This document shows positions 17,117 through 30,656 of a DNA stretch of 64,000 bases, in pieces. Each line of letters begins with the position of its first letter. Position 1 is the stretch's first letter. Origin of the DNA: a virus; IMG/VR virus record IMGVR_UViG_3300027852_000036. One strand, 5' to 3'. The position numbers and the translations under genes were made by a program. A model generated the notes under the pieces. That model had not been told where the DNA came from, did no database searches, and saw nothing but the letters and a program-made list of their open reading frames with translations.

Positions 17117-17147
17117 TGGCCAACTGCATAGGGCTTATGCCCTTAAA

Positions 17148-17627: not shown

Positions 17628-17882
17628 TTACTTAGCTACTTTTAACAAGTTAAATTCACCCTCTGCAAAAAATACGCAGTCGCGGACAGTATCGCCATCT
17701 GCAGCTTCTAAATACCGGCACGCACGTTCAAGTAGATGCATAAAATTATATTTTCTAGCAGCCTCCGTCGCGAGGGCTTCCGTAGCGTACCAAGTGCGTT
17801 GTGGAGGCAAGATAACACTATCGTTAATCTTACATACCTCTACTGTCCTATCGTTTACTGCTTCGCTCAATATATATCTCAT
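17628..17882 (-). CDS. Hypothetical protein
   Basis: 84-aa ORF overlapping the upstream stop codon. Confidence 0.55.
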   Translation of the reverse strand: MRYILSEAVNDRTVEVCKINDSVILPPQRTWYATEALATEAARKYNFMHLLERACRYLEAADGDTVRDCVFFAEGEFNLLKVAK

Positions 17883-18304
17883 AATATCACCCTACTATAC
17901 CAGTTAAGAAAACTTGCCCTGCTAAGCTCTCCTAAAGAGAAGCCCCACGGCACACCGTGCTTTAAAAAGTATCTGATACGGCTCGCGGCCCCCTGTGGGG
18001 TATTGTCTACCGCTGCCCAATGATAACTAAACAGCCACTCTACCGTTGGTTCACCTGGCCGGGACTCTGCAAAATTCTTCTGACAGTACCTAGCCCAATC
18101 TATATCCCGAGTACCATCGTAATAACAATCAAGTACCGAGATACCAATATAAGGGCCGTGACCGATCGCACAAGCCACTGTCTGACATTCCGAATCAATC
18201 AAGCTATCTTCGTTATAGCTACCCATGTCGAAATTGGGATAGCAGGCTGGCAAAGATTCTAAGTACTTTGCTAGTCTCTTGAGGTTCTTACGTCGTTTGC
18301 TCAT
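17879..18304 (-). CDS. Family A hypothetical protein (CxTxACAxGHGP motif)
   Basis: NLKRLAKYLESLP...FDMGSY...CQTVACAIGHGPYIGI...WLFSYHWAAVDNTPQGAASRI; ATG 18304 with GAGG RBS and upstream promoter. Confidence 0.75.
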   Translation of the reverse strand: MSKRRKNLKRLAKYLESLPACYPNFDMGSYNEDSLIDSECQTVACAIGHGPYIGISVLDCYYDGTRDIDWARYCQKNFAESRPGEPTVEWLFSYHWAAVDNTPQGAASRIRYFLKHGVPWGFSLGELSRASFLNWYSRVIL

Positions 18305-18492
18305 AATATTGCCTCTGTATGTAGGGTGTAATAATATCAAAAGCACGGAAGAGTGCCAATACCTTTTAGTTATAAGAAATAAAATTCATAGGGCCTATGC
18401 ACTTCGACAAACGTAATTATGCTTTCCAGACGTAAAAAACGCATAGGCCCTCACAGACCTATGCGTTTGTTGTATGCGTTTGTTGTATGCAG

Positions 18493-19230
18493 TTACTTAG
18501 CCGTGAAGTGATCCTTTAGCTGCACCCCTCTCCAGTTATATGCTTTCGGGTTTAGCCACTTTTTCTTGGGGGTGCTGTTGACAAGGGCCTTCAAAATTGG
18601 TAGCTCCCAGTATAGAACATCCTCTAATGCGGTATGCGGTTCAGCCTCGCTGGTGTCGGTCTTGCAAATAAAGTGGCGCATTACTTCAGCATTAGTTTTG
18701 TAGCTGCAGTTACCCTTCGACGTGCGCGAATTGAATAGGTGGTTTTCGAGTATGTAGTTCTTATATGCTTTCGTGAAAGCATACTTGTCGCTAGCAGCGT
18801 GCCATAAGCAAAACTGTTTGTCAGCGAATGCGGTTAGATCAATCCCAGTATTTGCACACTGGTTTAAATCGAATGTGAGGTTGTATGCGGTTAGGTATGG
18901 ATCATACGTCTCCTTCACTTTAGCAAGCCATGCGTTTATAGCTGGTACGCTTGCAAGCATTCGCGTCCCGTTTGCCACCATATCATTATACCTGTCGTAT
19001 CTCCTAGCTAGACTTGCTTTTGTCCATAACTCTCCTGCATCATTGTTGTAAAATAGCGGGTGGTTTTCTTTATCCGTGTATATGCCGTTCACTAGGATGG
19101 CGCATTGAGCTAGAACCTCGCCTTTCTTGGTGACGACTGCCGCCCCGAAATCCGCCACTTTTGACGTACTATTTTTAGTTGGGTTTGTCGTTTCTGTATC
19201 TACTATTAAAAACGTATCTCGCTTAGCCAT
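18493..19230 (-). CDS. DEDDh 3'-5' exonuclease (DnaQ/RNase T superfamily)
   Basis: IVDTETT, AYNLTFD, HTALEDV motifs. Confidence 0.8.
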   Translation of the reverse strand: MAKRDTFLIVDTETTNPTKNSTSKVADFGAAVVTKKGEVLAQCAILVNGIYTDKENHPLFYNNDAGELWTKASLARRYDRYNDMVANGTRMLASVPAINAWLAKVKETYDPYLTAYNLTFDLNQCANTGIDLTAFADKQFCLWHAASDKYAFTKAYKNYILENHLFNSRTSKGNCSYKTNAEVMRHFICKTDTSEAEPHTALEDVLYWELPILKALVNSTPKKKWLNPKAYNWRGVQLKDHFTAK

Positions 19231-19288
19231 GTTATGCATTCCTTTTGGAAAGTAAACCCCATGCTTGCATGGGGCTGGTTTACGTGGA

Positions 19289-19630
19289 TTATTCGCTATC
19301 TTGTGGGCCGTTGACGAATGCCTCTAGTGCGTCGAGAGTCGAAACGCTTGCACTTGCGAGTGTTTCGGCCTGCAAGCCAGTGAGTCCGATCACCTCGCCG
19401 ATGCGAGCCGCTTTTTTAGCTTTTGTGTCCTTAACAACTTTCGCCCCTTTCACCGTCTCCGCTTTGACGTATAACTGAAGACTAGACAGCTTGGCGATAA
19501 CACTAGCAGGCTTCTTGCCCAGTTCATTTGCGAGCTGTTGAACTTCTGTCTTGTTGTCCTGTCCAGTGTAGCCAGCTTTCAAGTGGTCGATCATGTCAGA
19601 AGTGTAGTTAGTGCTTTTTGAAGTTTTCAT
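19289..19630 (-). CDS. T5 A2-like small DNA-binding pre-early protein
   Basis: NYTSDM...LANELGKKPASVIAKLSSLQLYVK...ETLASASVSTLDAL resembles the A2 pattern (SVRSKL, LASLESAKLETLDAV); ATG 19630 below a TTGCAA/TATAAT promoter. Confidence 0.65.
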   Translation of the reverse strand: MKTSKSTNYTSDMIDHLKAGYTGQDNKTEVQQLANELGKKPASVIAKLSSLQLYVKAETVKGAKVVKDTKAKKAARIGEVIGLTGLQAETLASASVSTLDALEAFVNGPQDSE

Positions 19631-19706
19631 AAGATACAGCCTTTTTGTATGAAACGCCTTATGGTCGTTTCTGGTTAAGGAAGCATGGTTGCTTCCAGTG
19701 ATTCTA

Positions 19707-19913
19707 TTATAGCAACAATACTGATTTAATTGCAACTAAAATTAACGAAAAGTTTAAAATAATTAATGCCGTGCATTCTCCCTTTAATACTCCCCATAAA
19801 ATCCACAGTGCGTTGCCTCCTATCGCAACGTACCAACCTAATAACAATCCCTCTCCTATTAAGTAAAGACTAATCAACGTACCCGCCATCGCTAGCCACT
19901 CGATGCATTTCAT
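19707..19913 (-). CDS. Small multi-pass membrane protein, PnuC/PQ-loop half-transporter-like
   Basis: IEWLAMAGTLISLYLIG...LGWYVAIGGNALWILWG; about 68 aa, hydrophobic. Confidence 0.5.
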   Translation of the reverse strand: MKCIEWLAMAGTLISLYLIGEGLLLGWYVAIGGNALWILWGVLKGECTALIILNFSLILVAIKSVLLL

Positions 19914-19915
19914 GA

Positions 19916-20377
19916 TCAATGCCCCTGAGGTGACGGGATATAAAACCCGCGTGCGTTGAGTGCATGACAAAGATCGCGCAAATATGTATGGTTGTCTTCG
20001 TATACCTCTACCTGTACATCTTTGAACTGGCGTAAGTTTAGCATGGGTTTAATCGCTTCGATTTTCAAAGCCGCCCCGCCTCGCATATCGTCATTGCCCT
20101 GCCTATGCACTAACTTATCCGGCTGGCCTAAATGCCGGAGTACCCACTTTGTGCTATTCTCACACCACACTCTAGCAGTAGCGATGATCGTGTAAACATC
20201 CGGATCTTTCATTCCCTCAATATACCGCTTGCATAGCGGCAGTGGAGCATCTTGTAAGACCTTATGGCTGTTATCTCGCCAGTGCTGTAAGTCGATCTTG
20301 CCATCGTTGCCTAGCGCATAGCGGTGACTAGAGTCCGCTAGACAGCCGTCGAGATCGAATACTCTAATTGTCTTCAT
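19916..20377 (-). CDS. HAD-superfamily phosphatase (possible functional analog of T5 dmp nucleotidase)
   Basis: VFDLDGCLAD, IATAR, K motif and YEDN. Confidence 0.75.
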   Translation of the reverse strand: MKTIRVFDLDGCLADSSHRYALGNDGKIDLQHWRDNSHKVLQDAPLPLCKRYIEGMKDPDVYTIIATARVWCENSTKWVLRHLGQPDKLVHRQGNDDMRGGAALKIEAIKPMLNLRQFKDVQVEVYEDNHTYLRDLCHALNARGFYIPSPQGH

Positions 20378-20562
20378 TACTTCACACCTCTGTAAAATGC
20401 ATGATTACTGAAAATATGCTTTAAGATTGGCGACACTGCCATACCTTCCATAAACGGAACCGCATGGTCTTTTGATTCTACTACAGCTACCGCTCTAGCG
20501 AGTGACTGAGTTCGTGCTGGATTTTTTGCTATATGTAGTTGGATACGCTGCTGAAAAGTCAT
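20377..20562 (-). CDS. Hypothetical protein
   Basis: 61 aa; GGAG RBS; TTGACT-N16-TATTAT promoter upstream. Confidence 0.6.
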   Translation of the reverse strand: MTFQQRIQLHIAKNPARTQSLARAVAVVESKDHAVPFMEGMAVSPILKHIFSNHAFYRGVK

Positions 20563-20628
20563 GTCGTGTGCTCCGTTTAATGTGTAGTAATAATAGCAAA
20601 TTCTGGTTAAAAGTCAAATACCGTTTGG

Positions 20629-20799
20629 TTATAAGCTAGGGTCTTGTAAGATGTCGTATAGGTCGTGTAAGGTTCCGGGCAATTCTTTTCCCACATCTTC
20701 ATCGGTGCACTCTGCGTCGATAAGCGCATCCTTTAAGTCCGCTATTTCCGACTCGGTCAATTCTACAATATTTGACCAATCAAATGCGTCGTTCATCAT
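20629..20799 (-). CDS. Small highly acidic protein (56 aa)
   Basis: 16 Asp/Glu versus 2 Lys; own promoter and GGAG RBS. Confidence 0.65.
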   Translation of the reverse strand: MMNDAFDWSNIVELTESEIADLKDALIDAECTDEDVGKELPGTLHDLYDILQDPSL

Positions 20800-20837
20800 C
20801 CTGTACTCCGTTTGTGTATGGTGTAATAATAGCACAA

Positions 20838-21914
20838 CTAATCGGATGTGCAAGCAGTATCTGAAAAATATCTTTCTAGCGGGATTCTTAGGCTGGACTC
20901 TATTCTGTCCACTCCCATCGCTTCCTCAGCCTGAAAACTCAAGCTCCAAAAGTCAAGGATATTATCAAAGTAGGTAGGTACCTTCTTGTCAGCCAAGTAC
21001 CTAAGTCTGGCCACTGCCCCAGATACAGAACTATCTAGGGAGGCCCAATTGTCAGAAAAACACCAAGCCCCACCCTTCTTACTATTACTAGGTATGAAGC
21101 AACGCTCGACGTAAGAATCCCAATCCCACAGGTTAGGATCACTCAGCCCAACTGTCTCAGCGTCAATCATAGGTATACCGGCGTCTATTCCGTGATTAAT
21201 GAGACTCTTCCCAATATCAGGTACCTCACTCTCAAGATGCTCAGCCAGTTTTTTAAGGTTTGCTATCTTCATTAGATCCGGCACTTTCCGAACCTTTCCA
21301 AGCTTCGTTCCTAACGTCTTTATGTACCTCGCCTGCAATGTCCTGCAATATTCAGGCATTGCTCCAAATGACAACACCTGCCCACGTAATATGTCTAACT
21401 CCTCTTTGGTACCGGGCTCAGCGGCCTTGCGAAGGTCTTCTTGAAAAGGTGTTATAGGGCCACCAGCAACGGGATTCCCTCCCTTAATCATTAGCCAGCT
21501 GTCGAATTGCCTTCTGTGTATAAAAAACTTAGGTACCTTCTTGTCGATAGCTAAAAGTATCCGTAACCCGGCTCCTAGCCTAGAAGTGTCCTCGCCGTCC
21601 CAATTGAAACACCACTCATAGTCACTAAAGCTACCTAGGTCAGTATGCTTGAAAAAGCAACGCCGAGCATAGGAGTCCCAATCCCAATAAGCGGGGTCAG
21701 CATGTAAACCAGTTTCACTCGTCAGTAGAGGTATTCCAGCTTCGGGGCCATAAAACAGTGCACTAGGTTTTTCTGAAGTTTCTGAACGCAGCGAGTCTTT
21801 CTCGCAGTACTGCCCAATATCCGAGTGTCCTGAAGCCTCAGCTAGGCCGATTAGATGCTTAGCCAACTTACGTAGGTTCCCAACCCTGAAGCCGTTAAAA
21901 ATGCTCATAGCCAC
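20838..21914 (-). CDS. Protein with two tandem degenerate family A domains
   Basis: Twice NLxKLAxHL...G..AGIP...W..DWDSY..RCF...WCF..W...D....GA..R...L.DKKVP. Confidence 0.7.
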   Translation of the reverse strand: MAMSIFNGFRVGNLRKLAKHLIGLAEASGHSDIGQYCEKDSLRSETSEKPSALFYGPEAGIPLLTSETGLHADPAYWDWDSYARRCFFKHTDLGSFSDYEWCFNWDGEDTSRLGAGLRILLAIDKKVPKFFIHRRQFDSWLMIKGGNPVAGGPITPFQEDLRKAAEPGTKEELDILRGQVLSFGAMPEYCRTLQARYIKTLGTKLGKVRKVPDLMKIANLKKLAEHLESEVPDIGKSLINHGIDAGIPMIDAETVGLSDPNLWDWDSYVERCFIPSNSKKGGAWCFSDNWASLDSSVSGAVARLRYLADKKVPTYFDNILDFWSLSFQAEEAMGVDRIESSLRIPLERYFSDTACTSD

Positions 21915-22060
21915 TACCTCGTCATTTCGTCTATATATGCGTCCCTAGTCATATGGCCGGAAACGTTCTCATTGTGTACGTCTAGCGCGACATCAACGGA
22001 GACATTATAGAGCACTATGGCTGCTAACGCTACTAATATTAAAACTTTTAAATTGCTCAT
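21914..22060 (-). CDS. Small N-terminally hydrophobic protein, paralog of 17403-17531
   Basis: MSNLKVLILVALAAIVLYNVSVDVAL...; TTGGCA-N17-TATTAT promoter and GGAG RBS. Confidence 0.65.
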   Translation of the reverse strand: MSNLKVLILVALAAIVLYNVSVDVALDVHNENVSGHMTRDAYIDEMTR

Positions 22061-22337
22061 GGTCGTCTCCGTTTGTGTATGGTGTAATAATAGCAAAACT
22101 AGCGAGGAGTGCCAATACCGTTTGGTTATAATAAACCCCTATCTTACGTCCATACACTTGAGTCCGAAGTGCATATGTTTCAAGTGCATATGCGCTTCGC
22201 CGCGCCGATTTTACAGGAAAACAGGAGAAAAGTCAAGGACTTCCAGACGAATGGTCATAGCTCATTTATTCACACTAATGGTTGACATTAGGTACCTAAA
22301 TACGTATAGTGTAGCTTGAACTGAGAGGAATACAGCG

Positions 22338-23213
22338 ATGGGTACACATAAGTTAATGAAAGAACTAACAGAGGGTCAGTACACTATCAACGAGAATGGT
22401 AGTATAGACGTGGATGGTAGTGTTATAATCCCTACTTACATGCGGAAAATTCCTGTTAAGTTTGGGAAAGTTACCGGAAGCTTTTGTTGTGACAACACAA
22501 AAATCACCTCACTAAGGTACGCCCCTAAAAAAGTAGGCGGCAGCTTTTACTGTAACAGCACAAGGATCACCTCACTAAGGTATGCCCCTAGAAGAGTAGG
22601 TGGAAACTTTAACTGTAACAACACAGGAATAATCTCATTAAGGTACTGCCCTAGAAAAGTAGGTGGGAACTTTTACTGCAGCAACACAAAAATCACCTCG
22701 CTAAGGTACTGCCCTGAAAAAGTAGTTGTAGGTTTTTACTGTAACAGCACAAAAATCGCTTCGTTAAGGTACGCCCCTGGAAAGGTAGGTGGAAACTTTA
22801 ACTGTAACGACACAAAAATCACCTCACTAAGGTACGCCCCTAAAAAAGTAGTCGGAAGCTTTTACTGTAACAATACGGCGATCACCTCACTAAGGTATGC
22901 CCCTAGGAAAGTAGGTAGAAACTTTAATTGCAACAACACAGGAATCATCTCATTAAGACACTGCCCTAGAAAAGTAGGTGACGGCTTTTACTGCGGCAAA
23001 ACAAAAATCACCTCACTAATGTACGCCCCTGAAAAAGTAGGTGGAAGCTTCTACTGTAGCGGCACAAAAATAACTTCGTTAAGGTACGCCCCTGAAAAGG
23101 TAGGCGGAAACTTTTACTGCAACAACACAGAGGTCACCTCACTAGGGTACGCCCCTAAAAAAGTAGTCGGAAGCTTTTACTGTAACAATACAGCGATCAC
23201 CTCACCTCACTAA
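22338..23213 (+). CDS. LRR-like solenoid protein with 11 full and 1 partial 21-aa repeats (63-bp units)
   Basis: Repeat GxFxCxxTxIxSLxxxPxKVG from 22476; TTGACA-N17-TATAGT promoter and GAGGA RBS. Confidence 0.85.
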   Translation: MGTHKLMKELTEGQYTINENGSIDVDGSVIIPTYMRKIPVKFGKVTGSFCCDNTKITSLRYAPKKVGGSFYCNSTRITSLRYAPRRVGGNFNCNNTGIISLRYCPRKVGGNFYCSNTKITSLRYCPEKVVVGFYCNSTKIASLRYAPGKVGGNFNCNDTKITSLRYAPKKVVGSFYCNNTAITSLRYAPRKVGRNFNCNNTGIISLRHCPRKVGDGFYCGKTKITSLMYAPEKVGGSFYCSGTKITSLRYAPEKVGGNFYCNNTEVTSLGYAPKKVVGSFYCNNTAITSPH

Positions 23214-23339
23214 AACACTGCTCCGGGACTAGGGTGGTTCTATAACATTCCAAAAGGTTATAACAGTGGTTTTGTTATAACCTTTAGTTATACCTAGCGC
23301 CGAAAAATGCACTTCCAGCTATTACCTTTGCTATTTTAC

Positions 23340-24255
23340 GCGACCATGAGCAGATAATCAAGTCCAAACATTAGACCGTTTGATTATAAGAAACCCACTG
23401 AAACGACCATGAGCAGATAGCCGTGTATCATAACATGAGCAGATGTGCAACCCCAAACATTAGACCGTTTGGCTATAACGAAGCGACCATGAGCAGATAG
23501 CCGTGTATCATAACATGAGCAGCTAATCAACCCCAAACATTAGACCGTTTGATTATAAGAAACCCACTGAAACGACCATGAGCAGATAGCCGTGTATCAT
23601 AACATGAGCAGATAATCAAGTACCACCGGTCGGGGACATATGTGTATGGTCGTTTCATAATAGCGATTTTTAGCGCCTAGTGCGATTTCTACAAATTTTT
23701 GGTTTTTTGGTTTCCAAATTTGTGGGAGGATTATTTTTTACGATTTAGCGCCTAGTGCGATTTCTACAAATTTTCCATAAAATCGTTCCAAGTTGAAGCG
23801 ACCATGAGCATTTATTTCTCCATGAACATTTATTTCTCCATGAGCATTTATTTCTCCATAATCATTTGAATCAAGCTGCTGCGATGGAGGACGGTGGAGG
23901 CATCTGGAACAGCCTGCGTATGGTCGCATCAGACTGGATAGGACTGGATAGGACTGGAACAGGATGTGTATGGAGATATAAGACTGGATAGGACTGGAAC
24001 GGGATGTGTATGGTCGCTTCAACTCGAACCCCTAAAAGTGTACAGGAGCGGCTAGCGAAGAGCGAAAACGGTGGAGGATTTTTGAAGCGACCATACAAAA
24101 GTTACCGAAATTTCAACAACTCTAGCAGAATTGAAGCGACCATAATCATTCTGGAGCGAAACGGTTTCGAACTGGTGCTAGGGAGAGATGGAATAATGAT
24201 GCGGGAAGGATATAGTTTTGAAGGGAGTTTTCGAATGAACGAGTGTTCATGGTCG
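23340..24255. repeat. Complex non-coding repeat cluster
   Basis: CATGAGCAG x7 in nested 60-90 bp units (23345-23630); AGCGCCTAGTGCGATTTCTACAAATTT x2; 18-bp CATGAGCATTTATTTCTC x3; 10-bp GACTGGATAG/GACTGGAAC units; 11 CGACCAT heptamers in both orientations. Confidence 0.9.
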
Positions 24256-24655
24256 TTTCAGGAAGAAACTGTGATTGTACCTTATAAATATGTAAAATCC
24301 GGGTAGGTTTTAAATGCCGGATTTTTTATACAGCAAAAATATTGAAACGCAGGAGTGGTCCCAATAATCAGTATTCGTTGTAGTTGGTAGTAAATGTTTT
24401 AGTTTGTCTCAATGGGGGGGAGTCCGCGAATTCAAAGTCGGTATGTGTTTTTTCCTTTTGGTTCCAAAAAAACATACCGGATCATTCGATCCTCCCCGTA
24501 ATTATTTCTCTAGTGTTCAATTATTACTAATATAACATATTATATCAATGATTTTCGAAAAAGCAAGTCTTTTATTTTCTCTAGCCACGTGTAAAGCGTT
24601 ATTGCGTTTGAATTTATTTCTAGGTATTTTATTTACCTGAAATTAATAATATTAG

Positions 24656-24685
24656 TTGAATTGATTAGGTTAGTTTTGTTATAAT
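24656..24685 (+). promoter_or_regulatory. Sigma70-type promoter for the first gene after the repeat cluster
   Basis: TTGAAT-N18-TATAAT with an AT-rich upstream region; AAGGAG RBS before ATG 24720. Confidence 0.55.
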
Positions 24686-24719
24686 ACATTTTCAACTAAC
24701 TGAAAGAAGGAGTTTAAAA

Positions 24720-25967
24720 ATGAGTAACGAAGTGAGAACGATGAGTTTAACCGAATTTAAGAGGGCAGTGGGCGTAGCCAAGGGGTTAAGCCTCTGCAGG
24801 GTATCTTCAGAGGACCTAGATACTATTTATGAGAAATGGCCAGTGGCTGATGAAAATGAAAGGGTTGATATAGTACAAGTCTTGATAACCGCCCTAGTAG
24901 ATGCAGACCCACAACCTGCTCTTGATCTATTTCACCGTAGAGACTTGGAACCTAGTATTGGTTTGCTATTCAAGTGGCCTAAGCTAGTATCTGTTATAAA
25001 TACTGAGCGGAGTTGGTTAGGTGGTGAAGAGATTTGGGCGTTCACAGCTCTTGAGGATGGGTCAGATAGGAAATGGGATGCTTATGCAAATAGGTATCCT
25101 AATCGTAAGAAGAGCGCTGTTAAGTCTAGACTTAGAAACTTTAAAAAGGGGAATATTTCTAAATGGTATGAAAAGGCTGTCTCAGTCTCGGCCGATATTG
25201 GCTCGCCTGAATGTGCCGATGTAGGCCTTCGGCCTTACTCTCGGCTAGTACCGGCCAGTATTGCCCTGCTTGAGATGGAGTTCTTCGCTGCTGCAACTAC
25301 GCTAGACTTTACTAAAAGTTTAGAGCACTTTTCTAGCCTGACTGGTAATATTAACCTGATAGATGAGTTAGCTGCCTGCGATGCTAAACTATGGGTAGCA
25401 GACTTGATGCTTGATGCTTACAGTGCTGCTCCTGAAGAAGGTGAGAAACTTGCTGAGAAGTTGCCGGAGGTTAGGACGGGATACTACAGGTTCCCGCTAT
25501 ATACTATTAGACAATATGTAGCGATGCTTCTGATTGCCGAAAGTGGCAATAGTGCTAGCCTAATGCCTGAGTTTAATAAATTATTCCCAGAAGTACCATA
25601 CAGAGGCGCTAGAACTGCTGACGCATTAAGCGATCGCTTAGCTATGTTGAAAGGGGATTGGGGCAAGGTGCCAACTAATGCGAAGTTCTGTTGGGGTGTA
25701 GCTCCCTATAACTTCGTCTCCAGAGAACTAGGGACTTTAACGACCATACCCGAGTTTAAGGCATTAGTAGCAGCTAGGGAGAATGAGGACTTATGGATAG
25801 ACGAGAAGATTGTCCCAGTCCCCGTAAAAGGGATGCCAACTGAAGGTAAGTCTTTTGCTAGCTTAAAAGGCGCTGTAGTTGAAGCGACCATACCCGATCA
25901 GGATAAATTAGCAAGGTTAGCCGAACTGGAGAAAGAGATGGCCCAGCTTCGTAAGGATATAGGATAA
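24720..25967 (+). CDS. Hypothetical protein with possible Myb/HTH-like segments and a C-terminal coiled coil
   Basis: 415 aa; KWDAYANRYPNRKKSAVKSRL and FNKLFPEVPYRGARTADALSDRL. Confidence 0.7.
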   Translation: MSNEVRTMSLTEFKRAVGVAKGLSLCRVSSEDLDTIYEKWPVADENERVDIVQVLITALVDADPQPALDLFHRRDLEPSIGLLFKWPKLVSVINTERSWLGGEEIWAFTALEDGSDRKWDAYANRYPNRKKSAVKSRLRNFKKGNISKWYEKAVSVSADIGSPECADVGLRPYSRLVPASIALLEMEFFAAATTLDFTKSLEHFSSLTGNINLIDELAACDAKLWVADLMLDAYSAAPEEGEKLAEKLPEVRTGYYRFPLYTIRQYVAMLLIAESGNSASLMPEFNKLFPEVPYRGARTADALSDRLAMLKGDWGKVPTNAKFCWGVAPYNFVSRELGTLTTIPEFKALVAARENEDLWIDEKIVPVPVKGMPTEGKSFASLKGAVVEATIPDQDKLARLAELEKEMAQLRKDIG

Positions 25968-26035
25968 ACAAATTTTAAACCCTTGCCAGTTAGGGATCAA
26001 CTGGCTCAACTTAATTAAACAGATAGGAGAAACAA

Positions 26036-26758
26036 ATGAACAGATTAGAGAAAATACAAGACAGAGAAACTATGGTGGAATTAGCAGAAATGGTAGATAG
26101 GGTGATTAAGTCGTCAAGTAGTTCATACGATATACCTGCCGTAGTTGAGAGCCTGTGGCCCGCTATAAGCGACCATGGTATTTATCTACATGGTACTAGC
26201 GAGCAGGTAATGGAATCCCTACTGGGTCTCGCCCGTGAACACGGTGAGTGCAAGGACTTAATACATGATATAATTACCGCGGCCGGAGTAATGTACGGGG
26301 CGGACGCAGATAGTTGTTACCTTGTAGAGCACATAGCCCCGTTTTTAAGGACTAGTGAAGAATTAGGACTAGAGTTGAAACAGGCTAGAAAGGAGTTTGA
26401 TTACTTTGTAGGCTCGGAGTGGGAGAAAGACTCCATGTATAAGGCTATCCTAGTACTAGAGGATAGATACTCCTATAGGCGCGAAACAGAAGGCGCTAGA
26501 AAATCTGACTCTTGTAAGTATTGGCTAGTAACTCCTGAAGATATGGACTACTGTGAGGACGAACGGGATTTGGACTATATAGAAGAAGATCTAGAGGGAG
26601 ACTTAGTATTGATTAACGTAAAGATAGCAGAGTTAGAGCTGAAACGAGCTGAGTTAAGAATGAAACAGGCTAAAGAGGAGCTAACTAGCTTACAGCAAGA
26701 ACCCGAGCAAGGTGATTTCAGAAGCTTGCCAATGACAGGGACAGATGATTTAGGATAA
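26036..26758 (+). CDS. Hypothetical protein ending in a copy of the helicase C-terminal tail
   Basis: 240 aa; GGAG RBS; ends DFRSLPMTGTDDLG. Confidence 0.75.
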   Translation: MNRLEKIQDRETMVELAEMVDRVIKSSSSSYDIPAVVESLWPAISDHGIYLHGTSEQVMESLLGLAREHGECKDLIHDIITAAGVMYGADADSCYLVEHIAPFLRTSEELGLELKQARKEFDYFVGSEWEKDSMYKAILVLEDRYSYRRETEGARKSDSCKYWLVTPEDMDYCEDERDLDYIEEDLEGDLVLINVKIAELELKRAELRMKQAKEELTSLQQEPEQGDFRSLPMTGTDDLG

Positions 26759-26767
26759 ACAAATTAA

Positions 26768-26834
26768 ACCCGCCTAGTGCGGGTTTTTTATTGCCTCGAA
26801 TTCGAGACACAAAAAAGCCGCAATTAAGCGGCTA
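26768..26834. terminator. Back-to-back terminators at a convergent junction
   Basis: Plus strand CCCGC-CTAGT-GCGGG-TTTTTT; minus strand GCCGC-TTAATT-GCGGC-TTTTTT. Confidence 0.85.
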
Positions 26835-27041
26835 AGGGTGGTTATTCCATTCTACATCATAATTACCTATCTTATCTACTAAAGGCATTAGGGAGGGGTA
26901 ATACTTCTCTATGTTAACTACGAAAAACACTCCTCCGGAATTCATAACCACCATGTCCTTCTTAGAAGGCTTGTAACGTTTCCCAGCCTTACTAGGGTCT
27001 GGGTTATCTTTACTATAGAAAATCTTAAACTTTTTCCTCAT
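26832..27041 (-). CDS. Hypothetical protein
   Basis: 69-aa ORF, last gene of a leftward unit. Confidence 0.6.
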   Translation of the reverse strand: MRKKFKIFYSKDNPDPSKAGKRYKPSKKDMVVMNSGGVFFVVNIEKYYPSLMPLVDKIGNYDVEWNNHP

Positions 27042-27050
27042 TGTAATACC

Positions 27051-27437
27051 CTATCTAGTTGAGAATGGTTCTAGTATGTCCTGTAATTCTTGTAATAGTT
27101 TTGTTTGCTCTCGCTGTAGTTGGCTAAGCCTAACTACGATGTTCTCTCCTCTAGAGTAGTTTATTGATTCGGCCGATCTTATTAGGATATGGTCGTTGTC
27201 TTCTCCTACGAAGTATTTGCACGTTTCCTTGATTATTTCGTAGACTGTATCAGTATCATCTGATAGTTCCTGTAGTTGTGTAGCGATCTTTTCCTCACTG
27301 CTTGGTGAATGTAGCATATGTATAGCCATTATCGGCCAGAGTTTATAAATAAGCGCTAATCTCTCAGATACGTTGCCCACTCCTAGCTGTAGTGATAGTT
27401 CGTCTGATATGTGCTGAATTATTTGTTGGTTGTTCAT
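27051..27437 (-). CDS. Family C helical hypothetical protein
   Basis: KLWPIMAIH resembles SLWPAISDH of 26036; coiled-coil C-terminus. Confidence 0.65.
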   Translation of the reverse strand: MNNQQIIQHISDELSLQLGVGNVSERLALIYKLWPIMAIHMLHSPSSEEKIATQLQELSDDTDTVYEIIKETCKYFVGEDNDHILIRSAESINYSRGENIVVRLSQLQREQTKLLQELQDILEPFSTR

Positions 27438-27847
27438 AGTAGGCCTCTCAGCAAATCTATCTCGTCCTGAATGTGCTCTTGTTGCTGCCTTAAGTCTTCT
27501 ATTTGTCGAAGTACGTCATTCCGGTCAAAGAGTGCTAGGAGTTCATATAACGGGTGCTTAAAAGGTACTTCATAAAAGGTTAGTGTAGTTCTGATACATC
27601 TCTTGGCTATCTTTGCAGAAGTACCAGACTCCGCGAGAACCTCTAGTATATCCCTCTTTATTTGTTTAAGGTCGCGTTGCTTGGCTACATAACTACCATG
27701 AGCATCTGGCCCGATGTAGTTCCAAATCTCCGAAAGTGTGTGGATACTTTGTAGTATGATCTCCTCCCTAGTACTCTCCACACCTAAGGCGTATTTCCTA
27801 GTCGCAACCTTGAGAGCAATCTGTAATATGTCTTCTATTTGATCCAT
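27434..27847 (-). CDS. Family C hypothetical protein, paralog of 27952
   Basis: EIWNYIGPDAHGSY...KRC...FY...PLYELLALFD. Confidence 0.7.
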   Translation of the reverse strand: MDQIEDILQIALKVATRKYALGVESTREEIILQSIHTLSEIWNYIGPDAHGSYVAKQRDLKQIKRDILEVLAESGTSAKIAKRCIRTTLTFYEVPFKHPLYELLALFDRNDVLRQIEDLRQQQEHIQDEIDLLRGLL

Positions 27848-27951
27848 GGTTCATTGTTCCATTTAGATAAACTAAGCTTTTAGGCTTAGAACGATACTAG
27901 TAGCTTCTACACTCTAGGGCCTTTAGTCGTTTTCGTACCTCTTCCTGTTTA

Positions 27952-28494
27952 TCAAATTTGCCCCGCGTAACCATATAGACGCAAGGCCATAAAGCGTATA
28001 GGAGACCTAGCCGCTTTAGTGATTCTGCCCCCGTAGTCATCATCCATTGCTTGGCTGATATTAGCTATGGCAGCGCTTGCGATTTTATCAATAATCATAA
28101 TCCTTCCTTTAGTGTGTCTATCTCGTTTTGTAGAACTTGACGCCTGTATGTTAAATACTGTATTTTTTTTTACTAAGGTAACTTCTTTGTCAAATAGTGC
28201 CAGCACTCGGTACAGTGGATTACCTCTAGAAACAGCATAAAATTCTAATACCGCTTCGAGACACCTCTTAGTAGTGTTAGCTCCGTAGCCGTAAGATAGC
28301 AGGGCGCTGTGCGTACTGACTAAGTTCGTTCCAATATTATAACCACCATGAGCCTTTGGGCCAATGAGAGTCCACATCTCAGTAAGTGCCACTATGGTAC
28401 TTCCCAAGTTAGCTTCTCTGCTGCTACAGTATGTTGGATATTGTACCTTTACTAAACCCCGCGCAATCTCTACTATGTCTCGTGTGTTTTTCAT
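27952..28494 (-). CDS. Family C hypothetical protein, paralog of 27434
   Basis: EMWTLIGPKAHGGY...KRC...FY...PLYRVLALFD. Confidence 0.7.
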   Translation of the reverse strand: MKNTRDIVEIARGLVKVQYPTYCSSREANLGSTIVALTEMWTLIGPKAHGGYNIGTNLVSTHSALLSYGYGANTTKRCLEAVLEFYAVSRGNPLYRVLALFDKEVTLVKKNTVFNIQASSSTKRDRHTKGRIMIIDKIASAAIANISQAMDDDYGGRITKAARSPIRFMALRLYGYAGQI

Positions 28495-28793
28495 GCTGTT
28501 ACCCCCTCGAATTCTTCTTTAGTTAGTCGTTTACCTTTGATGTAGTACTCTACCGTACCGTCTGGATACTTAATAGCCGGGCCTTTTGTATTATGGTACT
28601 TGTCTTTGCGGAAGTACATCATAGTGTTATTGGCTAAGTAAACTGCTGGGCCTTCTTTTCTATCAAGTTTGTCTTTGCGAAACCAGTAGGTGTCTCCATT
28701 AGTCATTACAATAGCTGGGCCGCCTTTACGATGTCTCTTGTCTTTGTGGTACCAGAATGTACCAAACCTGTTCTCTACTACTGTATACTTCAT
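28491..28793 (-). CDS. Family B LHRxDGPA-repeat protein (3 repeats)
   Basis: HRKGGPAI, DRKEGPAV, HNTKGPAI; ends YYIKGKRLTKEEF. Confidence 0.75.
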   Translation of the reverse strand: MKYTVVENRFGTFWYHKDKRHRKGGPAIVMTNGDTYWFRKDKLDRKEGPAVYLANNTMMYFRKDKYHNTKGPAIKYPDGTVEYYIKGKRLTKEEFEGVTA

Positions 28794-28799
28794 TTTCTT

Positions 28800-28864
28800 T
28801 TCCTTTAATTCTCGATTTCAGAATATATTATACTCAATTAAGCTATGATTGTAAAGAATTAAAA
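28800..28864 (-). promoter_or_regulatory. Cassette copy 1: early promoter plus leader/RBS (no terminator)
   Basis: TTTACA (28855-28850)-N17-TATAAT (28832-28827), leader TGAAATCGAGAATTAAAGGAAAA. Confidence 0.9.
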
Positions 28865-28885
28865 TCATATTCACTTGTTTCTCCT

Positions 28886-29311
28886 TTAAATTATGTAGTC
28901 TTCAAATTCTTCTGAGTACGTGTAGGTTGCCTCTCGGCTAAAGAACCCTACGCTATCAAAGTCGTTGGGAACTCCTCGATCTAGCATATAAAGAATGCGC
29001 TTAGCAGCTCCGTGTGCCGTATCATCTACCTCCGACCAACTACTTGAGAAACACCACTCCCACTCTCGTGCGTATATACCTTTGATAAACACTCGCTCAG
29101 AGTAGTCAGGCCAGTACTCTCCTACCTCTATTGGAATTCCTGCGTAAGGCCCATGACCTACAGCACATGCCGTAGTTCCGCACTCATGTCTAGTGATGGG
29201 GGCGAATCTACTTTCTCTATCTTGACTGTAGTTATACATTCCGAAGTGACCATACCCTTCTGGTAGCCCGCTCAAATAGTAAGCTAATGTCGTAAGATTT
29301 TCAATGTTCAT
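28886..29311 (-). CDS. Family A protein, tandem copy 1
   Basis: 141 aa; CGTTACAVGHGPYAGIP; AAGGAG RBS. Confidence 0.8.
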   Translation of the reverse strand: MNIENLTTLAYYLSGLPEGYGHFGMYNYSQDRESRFAPITRHECGTTACAVGHGPYAGIPIEVGEYWPDYSERVFIKGIYAREWEWCFSSSWSEVDDTAHGAAKRILYMLDRGVPNDFDSVGFFSREATYTYSEEFEDYII

Positions 29312-29322
29312 TTGTTTCTCCT

Positions 29323-29748
29323 TTAAATTATGTAGTCTTCAAATTCTTCTGAGTACGTGTAGGTTGCCTCTAGTCCAGAGAACTCTCCGCCCTCAAAGTC
29401 GTTGGGAACTCCTCGATCTAGCATATAAAGAATGCGTTTAGCAGCCCCGTGTGCCGTATCATCTACCCCTACCCAACTACCAGAAAAACACCACTTCCAC
29501 TGTCGTGTATATCGGTCTTTAATAAACACTCGCTCAGAGTAGTCAGACCAGCGCTCTCCTTTGTTTATTGGAATTCCTGCGTAAGGCCCATGACCTACAG
29601 CACATGCCGTAGTTCCGCACTTGTATCTAGTGATGGAGTCGAATCTACTTTCTCTATCTTGATTGTAGCTATACATTCCGAAGTGACCATACCCTTCTGG
29701 TAGCCCGCTCAAATAGTAAGCTAATGTCGTAAGATTTTCAATGTTCAT
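29323..29748 (-). CDS. Family A protein, tandem copy 2
   Basis: 141 aa; 116/141 identical to copy 1. Confidence 0.8.
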   Translation of the reverse strand: MNIENLTTLAYYLSGLPEGYGHFGMYSYNQDRESRFDSITRYKCGTTACAVGHGPYAGIPINKGERWSDYSERVFIKDRYTRQWKWCFSGSWVGVDDTAHGAAKRILYMLDRGVPNDFEGGEFSGLEATYTYSEEFEDYII

Positions 29749-29975
29749 TCCGTCTCCTCCAGGAATTTAGCAATGTGGTCTAGGGACAGGCCTTCGTCGT
29801 CCTTCCTAATTACGATGCCGTTCTCTAGCTGTACTTGATCGCCTCCCTCAAAACCGTAAAATACGTCCCAATCTATGTATCCTTCCATATCTTCGATAGG
29901 TAGGAACATTAGCCCATCTGGTAAACTGTCCGAATAATCAGCTAATATTCTCAAGTTCTGTCTGTGTAGTTTCAC
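29745..29975 (-). CDS. Acidic hypothetical protein with a family A-like N-terminus
   Basis: NLRILADYSDSLPDG resembles NLxxLAxYLxxLPEG. Confidence 0.6.
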   Translation of the reverse strand: MKLHRQNLRILADYSDSLPDGLMFLPIEDMEGYIDWDVFYGFEGGDQVQLENGIVIRKDDEGLSLDHIAKFLEETE

Positions 29976-29980
29976 TTGTT

Positions 29981-30071
29981 TTTCCTTTAATTCTCGATTT
30001 CAGAATATATTATACTCAATTAAGCTGTGATTGTAAAGAATTAAAACACAAAAAACCCGCAATTAAGCGGG
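29981..30071 (-). promoter_or_regulatory. Cassette copy 2: terminator + early promoter + RBS
   Basis: CCCGCTTAATTGCGGG-TTTTTT, then TTTACA-N17-TATAAT and AAGGAAAA. Confidence 0.9.
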
Positions 30072-30656
30072 TTTGACTCTATTAAATTCTTTTTCTGTGT
30101 AGTGGTTTCCTTGTAAATACCAGTATAAATTACCGGAGTTTGTACTTACTGCTGGGCCATCTGTTCGGTGTATCAAACCTTTTCTATAGTACATAAAACC
30201 TCCGCCCTTATAGGTTACAGCAGGGCCGTATGCGCAATGTATTTTACCTTTCCTATAGCGGTAGCACGCTCCTTGTGGGTTAAAGATAGCGGGGCCTTTC
30301 TTACGGTGCAGTTTGCCCTTACGGTAGTATCTCTCGTATCCACTAGTCTGAACAACCGCAGGACCGTCCTTACGGTGTAGCTTACCCTTACGATAGTACT
30401 TAACGTACTCGCCTGTGCAAACAGCTGAGCCACCTTTGCGATGCAATCTATCATCCTTATACCAAGCATAAGCTCCGCTAGGATACTCTATCGCAGGCCC
30501 ATCTAGGCGGTGCAGTTTTCCATACTTATACCAATACTTTATCCCATCAGCTGTAATTACAGCAGGGCCATTCGGATTATGTAATACACCTTTTAGCATC
30601 CATTTAACGCTACCATCGTTACCGACCTTTACAGTGTACTCATCGTATGTAGTCAC
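30063..30656 (-). CDS. Family B LHRxDGPA-repeat protein (7 repeats)
   Basis: About 23-aa repeats; ends WYLQGNHYTEKEF. Confidence 0.75.
   Translation of the reverse strand: MTTYDEYTVKVGNDGSVKWMLKGVLHNPNGPAVITADGIKYWYKYGKLHRLDGPAIEYPSGAYAWYKDDRLHRKGGSAVCTGEYVKYYRKGKLHRKDGPAVVQTSGYERYYRKGKLHRKKGPAIFNPQGACYRYRKGKIHCAYGPAVTYKGGGFMYYRKGLIHRTDGPAVSTNSGNLYWYLQGNHYTEKEFNRVKPA

What the first reader, a model, noticed from the sequence alone, without database searches (positions are those of the whole stretch)
23340..24490. Dense multi-scale repeat cluster: candidate injection-stop signal, terminal-repeat boundary or origin
Seen: nested CATGAGCAG units, duplicated 27-bp blocks, 18-bp x3 and 10-bp units, CAAAC-N8-GTTTG inverted repeats, 11 CGACCAT heptamers, and a long inverted repeat CGGTATGT(G)T6...A7CATACCG at about 24439-24479. 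It is followed by an AT-rich stretch, with about 1.5 kb lacking a credible ORF. Established: in T5 the first-step-transfer DNA (A1, A2, dmp) ends in a repeat- and palindrome-rich injection-stop signal, and the gene order here (TerS, pre-early block, early genes, replication) matches a collapsed T5 terminal repeat. Inference: this is the equivalent signal and the hub of the GCGACCAT polarity.
Basis: partly seen in the sequence, partly recalled or inferred. Interest (0 to 1): 0.7.

Follow-up and report, generated by a model that had tools for sequence, protein, structure and literature searches.

The report
Polar-motif repeat hub in T5-like phage
A 1-kb mostly non-coding stretch of a marine T5-like phage stacks 11 copies, in both directions, of a 13-letter DNA word that elsewhere in the genome always points away from this spot; it sits where phage T5 keeps its injection-stop region, at the inner edge of the probable terminal repeat, but the protein that reads the word is unknown.

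Summary
The stretch beside it (24480-24740) has the lowest G+C of the whole window.

The core belongs to a roughly 13-bp word, AGCGACCATRNNC. It is about tenfold over-represented. Outside the hub, all 29 well-matching copies over 83 kb point away from the hub. This holds even where genes run the other way. The polarity flips back near the early/late gene junction at about 68 kb.

The phage is a distant T5 relative (DNA polymerase 47%, TerL 46% identical). Its gene order matches T5 with a collapsed terminal repeat, which puts the hub where T5 has Repeat Region 3 and the iss. In one public run, contig depth falls 2.1-2.6-fold inside the hub.

The T5 injection machinery is not demonstrable. No A1 homolog was found, the A2 match is marginal, and the hub has no DnaA boxes. 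A two-armed polarity also cannot come from one-way injection.

Best reading: this is the T5 RR3-like junction at the inner edge of the terminal repeat, built as a docking array for a direction-reading DNA enzyme. Chi-like end control is the leading candidate, with a replication origin and nickase sites as rivals.

T5 and a Vibrio T5-like phage lack the word. A closer relative keeps the hub.

The parts
23253..23285 (.). Perfect 13-nt inverted repeat (AAAGGTTATAACA / TGTTATAACCTTT) just after the LRR-like ORF. It forms the left edge of the non-coding region.
   Evidence: I15. Folds at -10.4 kcal/mol, z -5.0.
23340..23620 (+). Left array: 3.2 composite units of about 85-89 bp. Each unit carries a plus-strand motif copy (CGACCATGAGCAG), an extra CATGAGCAG half-copy and a CAAAC-N8-GTTTG palindrome. 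The palindrome region shares 15 of 18 bases (83%) with an element just upstream of three pre-early promoters (18358, 20617, 22114).
   Evidence: (families D3-D7). This array is absent from relative L124.
23640..23657 (-). First minus-strand motif copy (GAAACGACCATACACA). It is kept in relative L124.
23663..23774 (.). Core block. It contains an exact 31-bp direct repeat (23669-23699 and 23744-23774) flanking a T-rich inverted repeat, ACAAATTT...AAATTTGT. The first ~66 bp (23663-23728) are about 97% identical in relative L124 (dmp protein 83% identical), whose flanks are rearranged.
   Evidence: A Logan unitig breaks at 23775/23776.
23793..23867 (+). Plus-strand motif copy followed by 3.7 copies of an 18-bp unit (CCATGAGCATTTATTTCT). 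Each unit is a 3' half-copy of the motif.
23904..24025 (-). Units of 40-50 bp carrying two full minus-strand motif copies (23920, 24010), one degenerate copy and five GACTGGA(TAG) units.
24004..24306 (+). Possible 100-aa ORF with no family match. It contains four motif copies (24010-, 24088+, 24137+, 24249-). A terminator-like hairpin follows at 24293-24330.
   Evidence: Gene calls on three assemblies. No Pfam or PHROG hit. Hairpin.
24439..24479 (.). Long inverted repeat CGGTATGTGTTTTT / AAAAAAACATACCG with a 13-nt loop.
   Evidence: (I17).
24480..24719 (.). AT-rich stretch (26% GC), the lowest of the whole window. It includes a sigma-70-like promoter (24656-24685) for the 415-aa ORF.
24720..26758 (+). 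Two lineage-specific genes beside the hub. The 415-aa ORF carries two motif copies near its 3' end. The 240-aa ORF carries one motif copy (26170), and its last ~14 residues copy the C-terminal tail of the phage's DnaB-like helicase.
   Evidence: No homolog in 5.8 billion proteins except itself. Tails. Motif positions.
16650..17130 (.). Second repeat region between TerS and the pre-early block, and the candidate outer edge of the terminal repeat. It has G-tracts, four 19-bp repeats (three in another assembly), two 80-bp repeats, and two degenerate minus-strand motif-like copies (TTGACGCTACC...).
   Evidence: A loose end lies at 16699.
13699..14073 (-). Homolog of T5.153, an HNH protein between TerL and portal that Pfam files under PF26848 Phage_T5_Nicking_endo. 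It is a candidate reader of the motif.
   Evidence: 38% identity to T5.153, E 9e-34. Precomputed Pfam hit. Found in about 900 T5-like records.
1532..62093 (.). Dispersed copies of AGCGACCATRNNC. They lie on the minus strand left of the hub and on the plus strand right of it.

Best explanation
The cluster is the counterpart of T5's Repeat Region 3. That is the repeat-dense, mostly non-coding junction between the leftward pre-early (first-step-transfer-type) block and the early genes, at the inner edge of a terminal repeat that the assembly has collapsed.

It is built mainly from one word, AGCGACCATRNNC. There are 11 full and about a dozen half copies, in both orientations, around a conserved ~66-bp core (23663-23728).

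The same word is scattered through the genome, and all well-matching copies point away from the hub. On a T5-type linear map, every dispersed copy outside the repeat has the same orientation relative to the nearer physical end.

Proposed mechanism (inferred, not shown): the word is a directional signal read by an enzyme that tracks along DNA from the ends. The closest precedent is the Chi/RecBCD-type control seen in Chi-rich phages. The hub would act as a two-faced terminal wall. In the right repeat copy it lies at the very end of the genome. In the left copy it lies 6-7 kb inside. A helicase-nuclease entering from either end would be switched there from degradation to recombination, which spares the unique genome and favours repeat-by-repeat joining into circles or concatemers.

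Shown: the anatomy, the polarity, the T5-type position, conservation in a relative, and the depth drop.
For: - Family and position. DNA polymerase is 47%, TerL 46%, TerS 34% and T5.153 38% identical to T5, and a dmp homolog is present. Gene order matches T5 and VspSw_1 with a collapsed repeat.
- Over-representation. The window has 38 copies of the core against 3.5 expected, with 11 of them in 915 bp. It is the most over-represented 7-10-mer in the window (z 19-48).
- Polarity. GCGACCAT is 15 outward to 0 inward. On the 83-kb composite, 18 of 19 cores left of the hub are minus and 14 of 17 right of it are plus. All 29 copies with good flanks agree, 17 minus and 12 plus.
- Independence from transcription. 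In the minus-strand gene block 26.8-41.3 kb, 7 plus against 2 weak minus copies appear. The word occurs in all three reading frames, antisense and in intergenic DNA.
- Second flip. It lies between 67.3 kb and the far late genes, at or near the early/late junction at 68.2 kb. A pattern symmetric about the hub fits a two-ended or two-armed process.
- Depth. Unitigs at 18.3-22.0 kb have depth 274-284. Those at 27.1-31.9 kb have 108-111. The unitig that starts inside the hub (23776-26837) has 134.
- Conservation. Relative L124 (dmp 83%) keeps two plus copies, one minus copy and the core block at about 97% identity, although it lacks 1.3 kb of genes and the 85-bp array.
- Precedent. Phages LLS, MD8 and P1 accumulate strongly one-oriented Chi sites. 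In LLS and MD8 they are concentrated near one end, and P1 needs RecBCD to recombine its terminal repeats (PMC12315714).
- Read as ATGGTCGC, the orientation that would be active toward the nearer end by the lambda rule, the word shares TGGT.G with E. coli Chi GCTGGTGG. This comes from the sequence alone and is weak.
Against: - No reader is identified and the host is unknown.
- About 10-13 positions are constrained, which is longer than any known Chi (5-8 nt).
- Copy density does not fall away from both ends. On the early arm it falls from 0.5 to 0.19 per kb. On the late arm it rises toward the genome centre.
- The depth evidence comes from one metagenomic run kept as contigs with mixed strains. 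The left flank shows a gradient (168 to 284), not a clean step. The ratio exceeds 2, and late genes sit at 1.5 times the early genes. The repeat edges are therefore not fixed.
- T5 (six Chi octamers in 113 kb) and VspSw_1 (none) show no dispersed over-represented word of their own. This is not a family trait.
- The hub also has the classic look of a replication origin (see rival).
Confidence: 0.4

Rival explanations
1. The hub is a replication origin. The motif copies would act as iterons, the 25%-GC stretch as the unwinding element and the adjacent lineage-specific genes as initiator or loader. Forks would leave in both directions (on a circle or concatemer, or inward from both repeat copies) and meet at the early/late junction. 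The dispersed copies would be replichore-type signals co-oriented with the forks (priming, fork-trap or restart sites).
For: - The hub is the divergence point of a two-armed polarity. The convergence point lies about 44 kb away at the early/late junction, which is the antipode if the unique length is about 89 kb.
- About 85% of genes would be co-oriented with forks leaving the hub.
- The hub has a both-orientation repeat array next to the lowest-GC 240 nt of the window.
- No homolog of the T5.108 'replication origin binding' protein was found anywhere in 83 kb.
- The two genes next to the hub have no homologs at all. One ends in the helicase's own C-terminal tail.
- The complement of the word contains TGGTC, a T7 primase recognition pentamer (my own knowledge, not tested here).
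Against: - In T5 the origins map near the genome centre, and the equivalent region is not considered an origin (Davison, bioRxiv 10.1101/866236).
- GC skew follows transcription and shows no separate switch at the hub.
- Depth is asymmetric across the hub, not a symmetric peak. Virion DNA would show no peak anyway.
- An initiator does not explain dispersed polar copies.
- The AT-rich stretch also contains an ordinary promoter.
Confidence: 0.25
2. The word is the recognition site of the phage's T5.153-type HNH nicking endonuclease. The dispersed copies would be the counterpart of T5's strand-specific nicks. The hub would be a dense nick-site cluster at the repeat edge, used for end processing or duplication of the terminal repeat by nick-primed strand displacement.
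For: - A T5.153 homolog sits between TerL and portal (38% identity, E 9e-34; precomputed PF26848 hit).
- The T5 major nicks have the consensus R^GCGCRGG on one strand, and one of them (9748) lies inside the T5 iss region.
- The word here begins A-GCG-A, so R-GCG is shared.
- HNH proteins beside terminase genes assist DNA cutting in other phages (PMC13595911).
Against: - All annotated T5 nicks are on one strand along the whole genome. Here the strand flips twice.
- The T5 nick consensus is not over-represented in T5: 5 minus and 3 plus copies.
- The nickase is present in about 900 T5-like records, yet T5, VspSw_1 and relatives with 55-75% TerL identity show no such word.
- The R-GCG match is short and could be chance.
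Confidence: 0.18
3. The hub is a true T5-type injection-stop signal. Entry of the left end would pause when the hub reaches the envelope, and pre-early proteins would then release the rest of the genome.
For: - Its position is the same as the T5 iss (9140-10149 of LTR 1-10219).
- It has the same kind of anatomy, with nested repeats, inverted repeats and palindromes.
- A dmp homolog and strong leftward sigma-70-like promoters lie in the block to its left.
- The depth drop at the hub suggests a repeat edge.
Against: - No A1 homolog was found (tblastn E<=1 over 83 kb and PHROG scans). A2 is only marginal (E 0.006).
- The hub has no DnaA box, and only two occur in 16.6-24.8 kb. Paired DnaA boxes are reported in the iss region of all 25 T5-like phages compared.
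- One-way injection cannot create a polarity that reverses at the genome centre.
- Even in T5 the stop has not been mapped to defined sequences.
Confidence: 0.12
4. The hub is a packaging start (pac-like site) of a headful series running leftward. The repeats would be TerS docking sites.
For: - The depth profile looks like a sawtooth: 284 just left of the hub, declining to 168 at 13 kb, with a sharp fall to 134-108 on the right.
- Arrays of short repeats are typical TerS targets (my own knowledge, not tested here).
Against: - TerL and TerS are T5-type (46% and 34% identity). That type makes exact long terminal repeats.
- The hub lies 6.7 kb from the TerS gene, with another repeat region directly beside TerS.
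- Depth bins sum mixed-strain contigs.
Confidence: 0.05

Closest known systems
T5 Repeat Region 3 / injection stop signal (iss) in the left terminal repeat of Tequintavirus T5 (NC_005859 9140-10149; Davison, bioRxiv 10.1101/866236)
   Same: - It has the same position: after the leftward pre-early block and a few rightward genes, before the early genes, at the inner end of the repeat.
- It is about 1-1.2 kb, mostly untranslated and packed with nested direct repeats, inverted repeats and palindromes.
- It contains the site type that is nicked or repeated elsewhere in the genome.
   Different: - There is no sequence similarity.
- It has no DnaA boxes and no IRD'-spacer-IRC' partner elsewhere in the repeat.
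- A1 is absent and A2 is doubtful.
- T5's own array word (GCAAATCCG) is almost entirely local: 7 of 9 copies lie at 9.7-10.5 kb. Here the array word is dispersed genome-wide and strictly polar.
Chi-rich phages: lambdoid LLS, Pseudomonas MD8, and P1 (Zheng et al. 2025, PMC12315714)
   Same: - A short asymmetric word is the most over-represented oligomer of the phage.
- It is almost wholly in one orientation relative to a DNA end.
- It is concentrated near an end (LLS and MD8).
- In P1 it is linked to recombination of long terminal repeats.
   Different: - Those phages carry the host's known 8-mer Chi and one polarity over the whole genome.
- Here the word is 10-13 bp and matches no known Chi.
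- It has two opposed arms plus a both-orientation cluster.
- The phage is a virulent T5 relative with its own SbcCD-like and other nucleases.
Iteron-type replication origins of phages and plasmids (e.g. lambda ori, P1 oriR)
   Same: - A cluster of repeated protein-binding words lies in both orientations.
- The most AT-rich DNA of the region is adjacent.
- Lineage-specific genes sit alongside.
   Different: - Iterons are not dispersed through the genome in a polar way.
- No initiator fold or family could be recognised here.
Site-specific nicks of T5/BF23, phiKMV-like phages and phage tf (PMC3517423)
   Same: - The sites are asymmetric 7-10-bp words confined to one strand.
- The phage encodes the T5.153-type HNH protein.
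- R-GCG is shared with the T5 consensus.
   Different: - In those phages all sites lie on one strand genome-wide.
- In T5 the sites are not over-represented.
- Here the strand switches at the hub and near the genome centre.
Bacterial replichore-polar words (KOPS/FtsK, SRS/SpoIIIE, Ter/Tus)
   Same: - Two opposed arms of a skewed word have switch points about half a genome apart.
   Different: - These are chromosome-scale systems without a cluster at the switch point.
- No FtsK-like or Tus-like protein was found in the 83 kb examined.

Membership tests
T5-type first-step-transfer region with iss | The phage belongs to the T5-like group (Demerecviridae-type replication, packaging and tail genes). 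| tested here: met
   DNA polymerase 47%, TerL 46%, TerS 34% and T5.153 38% identical to T5. Split NAD ligase and D2, D3, D5, D11, D12 and D13 homologs are present.
T5-type first-step-transfer region with iss | An untranslated repeat- and palindrome-rich region lies between the pre-early block and the early genes. | tested here: met
T5-type first-step-transfer region with iss | The region lies at the inner end of a long exact terminal repeat. | tested here: inconclusive
   Unitig depth is 274-284 left of the hub, 134 for the unitig starting inside it and 108-111 further right. This is one mixed-strain contig data set with a gradual left flank. Raw virion reads were not available.
T5-type first-step-transfer region with iss | The pre-early genes dmp, A1 and A2 are present (A1 and A2 are required for second-step transfer). 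| tested here: not met
   A dmp homolog is present (E 5e-8; precomputed PF26880 hit). A1 gave no hit by tblastn at E<=1 or by PHROG scans. A2 is only marginal: ORF 19289-19735 against phrog_1725 at E 0.006, with no BLASTP alignment.
T5-type first-step-transfer region with iss | Paired DnaA boxes lie in inverted-repeat arms (seven or eight per FST region in T5-like phages). | tested here: not met
   No TTWTNCACA in 23200-24750, and only two in 16.6-24.8 kb. The feature is defined.
T5-type first-step-transfer region with iss | DNA entry pauses at this site in vivo. | not testable with these tools
   This needs an isolate and a shear experiment.
Chi-type polar recombination/attenuation sites | A short asymmetric word is strongly over-represented and oriented relative to DNA ends or fork direction. 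| tested here: met
   38 copies against 3.5 expected. All 29 well-matching dispersed copies fit a two-armed pattern.
Chi-type polar recombination/attenuation sites | The word is the Chi of the host's RecBCD/AddAB enzyme and is skewed on the host chromosome. | not testable with these tools
   The host is unknown and no whole genome is held for the window. The word matches no published Chi (my own knowledge).
Iteron-type replication origin | Clustered repeats lie beside an AT-rich unwinding element. | tested here: met
Iteron-type replication origin | A recognisable initiator is encoded next to it, or initiation has been mapped there. | tested here: inconclusive
   The adjacent 415-aa and 240-aa ORFs have no family or homolog. 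The Atlas model of the 415-aa protein is poor (pLDDT 0.40). The 240-aa ORF shares the helicase tail. No replication data exist.
T5-type site-specific nick sites | A T5.153-type HNH protein is encoded. | tested here: met
T5-type site-specific nick sites | All sites lie on one strand of the genome. | tested here: not met
   The strand flips at the hub and again beyond 67 kb. The T5 nicks are all on the minus strand.
T5-type site-specific nick sites | Physical nicks are present at the word in virion DNA. | not testable with these tools
   Only assembled contigs were available.

The most novel reading that the evidence does not exclude
A virulent T5-like phage lineage has evolved its own two-armed directional DNA code. 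A ~13-bp word points toward (or away from) the genome ends on both halves. A two-faced array of the word sits at the terminal-repeat edge. This would be a phage-encoded counterpart of Chi, KOPS or Ter.
Probability: 0.2. Interest if true: 0.8.

Novelty: new variant of a known kind. Interest (0 to 1): 0.62.

Why it matters
- How T5-like phages protect and process their exposed DNA ends is still open. So is what their repeat-rich iss region does, and what their strand-specific nicks are for.
- In this phage the equivalent region is built from a word that also marks the whole genome with a strict two-armed polarity. That ties the enigmatic junction to a genome-wide directional process. It also gives a defined, testable DNA ligand for pull-downs, nick mapping and nuclease assays.
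- One-oriented Chi-rich phages are known (PMC12315714), but the papers read here describe no two-armed layout with a both-orientation hub; no exhaustive literature search was made.

Tried and rejected
Searches that found nothing:
- Similarity of the hub DNA and of the 415-aa ORF to 50,697 phage records: no match.
- Relatives of the 415-aa ORF, TerS, the 358-aa ORF and dmp in IMG/VR: none.
- Exact 14-mer of the word in IMG/VR: 92 single chance hits and no locus with several copies.
- The 23-nt core-block pattern in IMG/VR: none.
- Rfam over 16-27 kb: nothing near threshold.
- Pfam and PHROG scans of hub-side ORFs: nothing.
- ESM Atlas for the 415-aa ORF: poor model and no usable neighbour.

Steps that could not be completed:
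- The whole genome of the window is not held.
- The ENA contig ends do not overlap, so the circle was not closed. The last ~5 kb and the exact unique length stay unknown.
- Relative L113 (TerL 55%) shows no hub within 10 kb upstream of TerL, so it was uninformative.

Readings rejected:
- Promoter or transcription-linked signal. Copies are antisense throughout 26.8-41.3 kb and lie inside genes in all frames.
- Coding artefact, because the frames are mixed.
- Family-wide trait, because T5 and VspSw_1 lack any such word.
- Known Chi octamers are not enriched here.
- GC-skew evidence for an origin, because the skew follows gene direction only.

Not interpretable:
- Contig ends of the JGI 10.3-kb contig (17841-28171) as repeat edges, because breaks coincide with strain-variable spots.
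Full report
WHAT IS THERE

- CGACCAT occurs 38 times in the window, against 3.5 expected (largest of 100 shuffles: 9).
- Eleven copies lie in 23341-24255, seven on the plus strand and four on the minus strand.
- The left part (23345-23619) is 3.2 copies of a composite unit of about 85-89 bp. Each unit holds a full copy (CGACCATGAGCAG), an extra CATGAGCAG and a CAAAC-N8-GTTTG palindrome.
- Next come an exact 31-bp direct repeat flanking a T-rich inverted repeat (23669-23774) and 3.7 copies of an 18-bp unit that is a half-copy of the word.
- Then come 40-50-bp units with GACTGGATAG repeats and minus-strand copies, and a perfect 16-nt inverted pair (24007-24022 / 24082-24097).
- The 14-nt-arm inverted repeat lies at 24439-24479 (-10.5 kcal/mol, z -3.2).
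- The stretch that follows (24480-24740, 25% GC) is the lowest-GC 240 nt of the whole 64 kb.

One correction: three independent gene calls place a 98-100-aa ORF at 24004-24306. It is followed by a hairpin with a T-run and has no family match.

THE WORD AND ITS POLARITY

(G)CGACCAT(AC) is by far the most over-represented 7-10-mer of the window (z 19-48 against a second-order model).

Aligning 32 dispersed copies gives A-G-C-G-A-C-C-A-T-R-n-n-C, with about 10-13 constrained positions.

I joined the window to overlapping pieces of the same phage from an ENA assembly. The overlaps are 100% identical. The composite runs from -13.5 to 69.7 kb in window coordinates.

- Left of the hub, 18 of 19 cores are on the minus strand.
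- Right of the hub, 14 of 17 are on the plus strand.
- The four exceptions have poor flanks and match the number expected by chance.
- All 29 copies scoring 16 or more agree: 17 minus and 12 plus. The matrix was built from these same sites, so the score cut is partly circular. The raw counts are not.

The polarity is not tied to transcription.

- In the minus-strand gene block 26.8-41.3 kb, full and one-mismatch copies are 7 plus against 2 weak minus.
- The word sits in all three frames, antisense and between genes.

The polarity flips back somewhere between 67.3 kb (last plus copy) and the far late genes (first minus copy at -13.2 kb). That places it at or near the early/late junction at 68.2 kb.

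If the unique length is the 88.9 kb of the longest contig on record, the junction is the antipode of the hub. I could not close the circle.

WHAT KIND OF PHAGE, AND WHERE THE HUB SITS

The phage is a distant T5 relative.

- DNA polymerase is 47%, TerL 46%, TerS 34% and the HNH protein T5.153 38% identical to T5.
- It has a split NAD ligase, homologs of D2, D3, D5, D11, D12 and D13, and a T5-like major tail protein.

The gene order is late genes, portal, HNH, TerL, PhoH, TerS, a repeat-rich gap (16.65-17.13 kb), a leftward block with a dmp homolog and strong sigma-70-like promoters, two rightward genes, the hub, and then early genes. This is the order of T5, and of Vibrio phage VspSw_1 whose record also has the repeat collapsed.

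The hub is therefore the positional counterpart of T5 Repeat Region 3. That region holds the iss (9140-10149 of LTR 1-10219) and one major nick (Davison, bioRxiv 10.1101/866236).

IS IT AT A TERMINAL-REPEAT EDGE?

One public marine run holds the phage, kept only as contigs. The table gives unitig depths.

| Region (window coordinates) | Depth |
|---|---|
| 12.5-14.2 kb (late genes) | 168-175 |
| 18.3-22.0 kb | 274-284 |
| 23776-26837 | 134 |
| 27.1-31.9 kb (three unitigs) | 108-111 |

- The fall of 2.1-2.6-fold lies inside the hub.
- The excess of the 134-deep unitig over its right-hand neighbours would fit a doubled first 450-700 nt. That would put an edge near 24.2-24.5 kb. This is my arithmetic and is only suggestive.

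Caveats:
- The run contains mixed strains. Twelve of the 93 laid contigs are only 95-99% alike, and there are loose ends at 16699 and 17739.
- The left flank rises gradually.
- Late genes sit at 1.5 times the early genes.

I read this as moderate support for a repeat whose inner edge lies in the hub. The outer edge is unresolved.

TESTS OF THE INJECTION-STOP READING

- A dmp homolog is present (E 5e-8).
- A1 gives no hit by tblastn (E<=1) over 83 kb or by PHROG scans.
- The ORF beside dmp (19289-19735) touches the A2 family phrog_1725 only at E 0.006 and gives no BLASTP alignment to T5 or Vibrio A2.
- The hub has no DnaA box. Paired DnaA boxes are reported in the iss region of all 25 T5-like phages compared.
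- One-way injection or packaging cannot generate a polarity that reverses at mid-genome.
- The position fits. The function is neither supported nor excluded.

COMPARATIVE EVIDENCE

- T5's own array word (GCAAATCCG) is almost entirely local to its iss region, with 7 of 9 copies at 9.7-10.5 kb. T5 has no dispersed over-represented word.
- In VspSw_1 only tRNA and promoter words stand out.
- Relatives with 55-75% TerL identity lack CGACCAT. This includes L119, which covers the late-gene stretch where this phage has five copies.
- Closer relatives keep it. L123 (dmp 94%) keeps the site at 19661.
- L124 (dmp 83%) has a hub directly upstream of the pre-early promoter, with two plus copies and one minus copy in the same order.
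- L124 also has a ~66-bp core (window 23663-23728) at about 97% identity, although it lacks the two rightward genes and the 85-bp array.
- So the word copies and the core block are under constraint, while the 85-bp array is a recent expansion.
- Over the 21 kb compared, the ENA assembly differs from the window only by one 19-bp repeat unit at 16.8 kb, and the JGI and Logan contigs match the window exactly, so the hub is identical in all three.

MECHANISM

A pattern that is symmetric about the hub needs a two-armed process. On a T5-type linear map this is equivalent to symmetry about the genome centre.

1. Chi-like end control (leading reading).
   - On the linear map, every dispersed copy outside the repeat has the same orientation relative to the nearer end. 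The two copies inside the left repeat are forced by identity with the right repeat.
   - The hub lies at the extreme right end and 6-7 kb from the left end, and it faces both ways.
   - This resembles the terminally clustered, one-oriented Chi sites of LLS and MD8.
   - It also resembles the RecBCD-dependent repeat recombination of P1 (PMC12315714).
   - Weak points: the word is long, the host and reader are unknown, and copy density does not fall from both ends.

2. Replication origin.
   - For: a both-orientation array next to the most AT-rich DNA, and no T5.108 origin-binding homolog.
   - For: two orphan genes beside the hub. One ends in the helicase's own tail...FRSLPMTGTDDLG against ...FRGLPMAGTDDLG.
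   - For: about 85% of genes co-oriented with outward forks.
   - Against: the T5 origins are central, there is no skew signal, and depth across the hub is asymmetric.

3. Nickase sites.
   - For: the T5.153 homolog is present, the T5 nick consensus R^GCGCRGG shares R-GCG with the word, and one T5 nick lies in its iss.
   - Against: all T5 nicks are on one strand and the T5 site is not enriched.

These readings are not exclusive of the positional assignment. I put about 0.4 on the junction-plus-end-control reading, 0.25 on an origin, 0.18 on nickase sites, 0.12 on a true injection stop and 0.05 on a pac-like start.

VERDICT

The T5-type position and the role as hub of the polarity hold. The repeat edge is suggested. 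The injection-stop function is not shown, and two of its family hallmarks are missing.
- The feature is a new variant of a known kind of region.
- Its most unusual aspect is that it is built from a lineage-specific word that is strictly polar across the genome, in two arms.

Noticed in passing
window 16650-17130: A second repeat-rich non-coding region lies between TerS and the pre-early block. It has G-tracts, four 19-bp repeats (TTTCTTTTGTTTCGAACTG) and two 80-bp repeats with hairpins. It also has two degenerate motif-like copies, and it shares GTTTCGAACTG and GTTCATGGTNG with the right part of the hub. The ENA assembly has one 19-bp unit fewer, the only difference in 21 kb. It is a candidate outer repeat edge or terminase site.
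   Followed up: partly
window 18297-18379, 20590-20634, 22053-22135 (minus strand): Three near-identical pre-early promoter cassettes (TTATAACCAAACGGTATTGGCA, 17 nt, TATTAT, RBS, ATG). Their upstream element recurs three times in the hub's left array. The motif copy at 22059 overlaps the start codon of a 48-aa ORF.
   Followed up: partly
window 26036-26758 and 53685-55061: The orphan 240-aa early protein and the DnaB-like helicase end in nearly the same tail (FRSLPMTGTDDLG against FRGLPMAGTDDLG). This suggests competition for, or sharing of, one replisome partner.
   Followed up: partly
composite -13.5 to 69.7 kb: No homolog of T5 A1 (DNA transfer protein) or of the T5.108 'replication origin binding' helicase was detected. 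Homologs of dmp, D2, D3 and D11 were.
   Followed up: yes
window 22017-23213; L124: The 100-aa ORF and the 291-aa 63-bp-repeat (LRR-like) ORF are missing from a relative with 83% dmp identity. In that relative the hub abuts the pre-early promoter, so these two genes are a lineage-specific insertion or loss.
   Followed up: partly
window 15462-16001: A PhoH-like gene sits between TerS and TerL. In T5 phoH lies in the early region.
   Followed up: no
L115:1100-4930: A relative with 53% TerL identity repeats a cassette five times: CTTGACAC, about 16 nt, TAAAAT, then CGGCGCCATGG. The ATG lies about 7 nt after the -10 element, so the mRNAs may be leaderless. The CGGCGCCATG word resembles CGACCATG in form.
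   Followed up: no
window 62913-63757: About 0.85 kb with only tiny ORFs separates the D12 and D13 nuclease-subunit genes, which overlap in T5. It lies near the centre of the putative linear genome, but the motif polarity does not switch there (the copy at 67268 is still plus).
   Followed up: partly
window 17739-17841 and 22073: This is a strain-variable spot. Logan contigs show a loose end at 17739 and a low-depth joint 17762->22073 that skips 4.3 kb of pre-early genes. A JGI contig starts at 17841.
   Followed up: no
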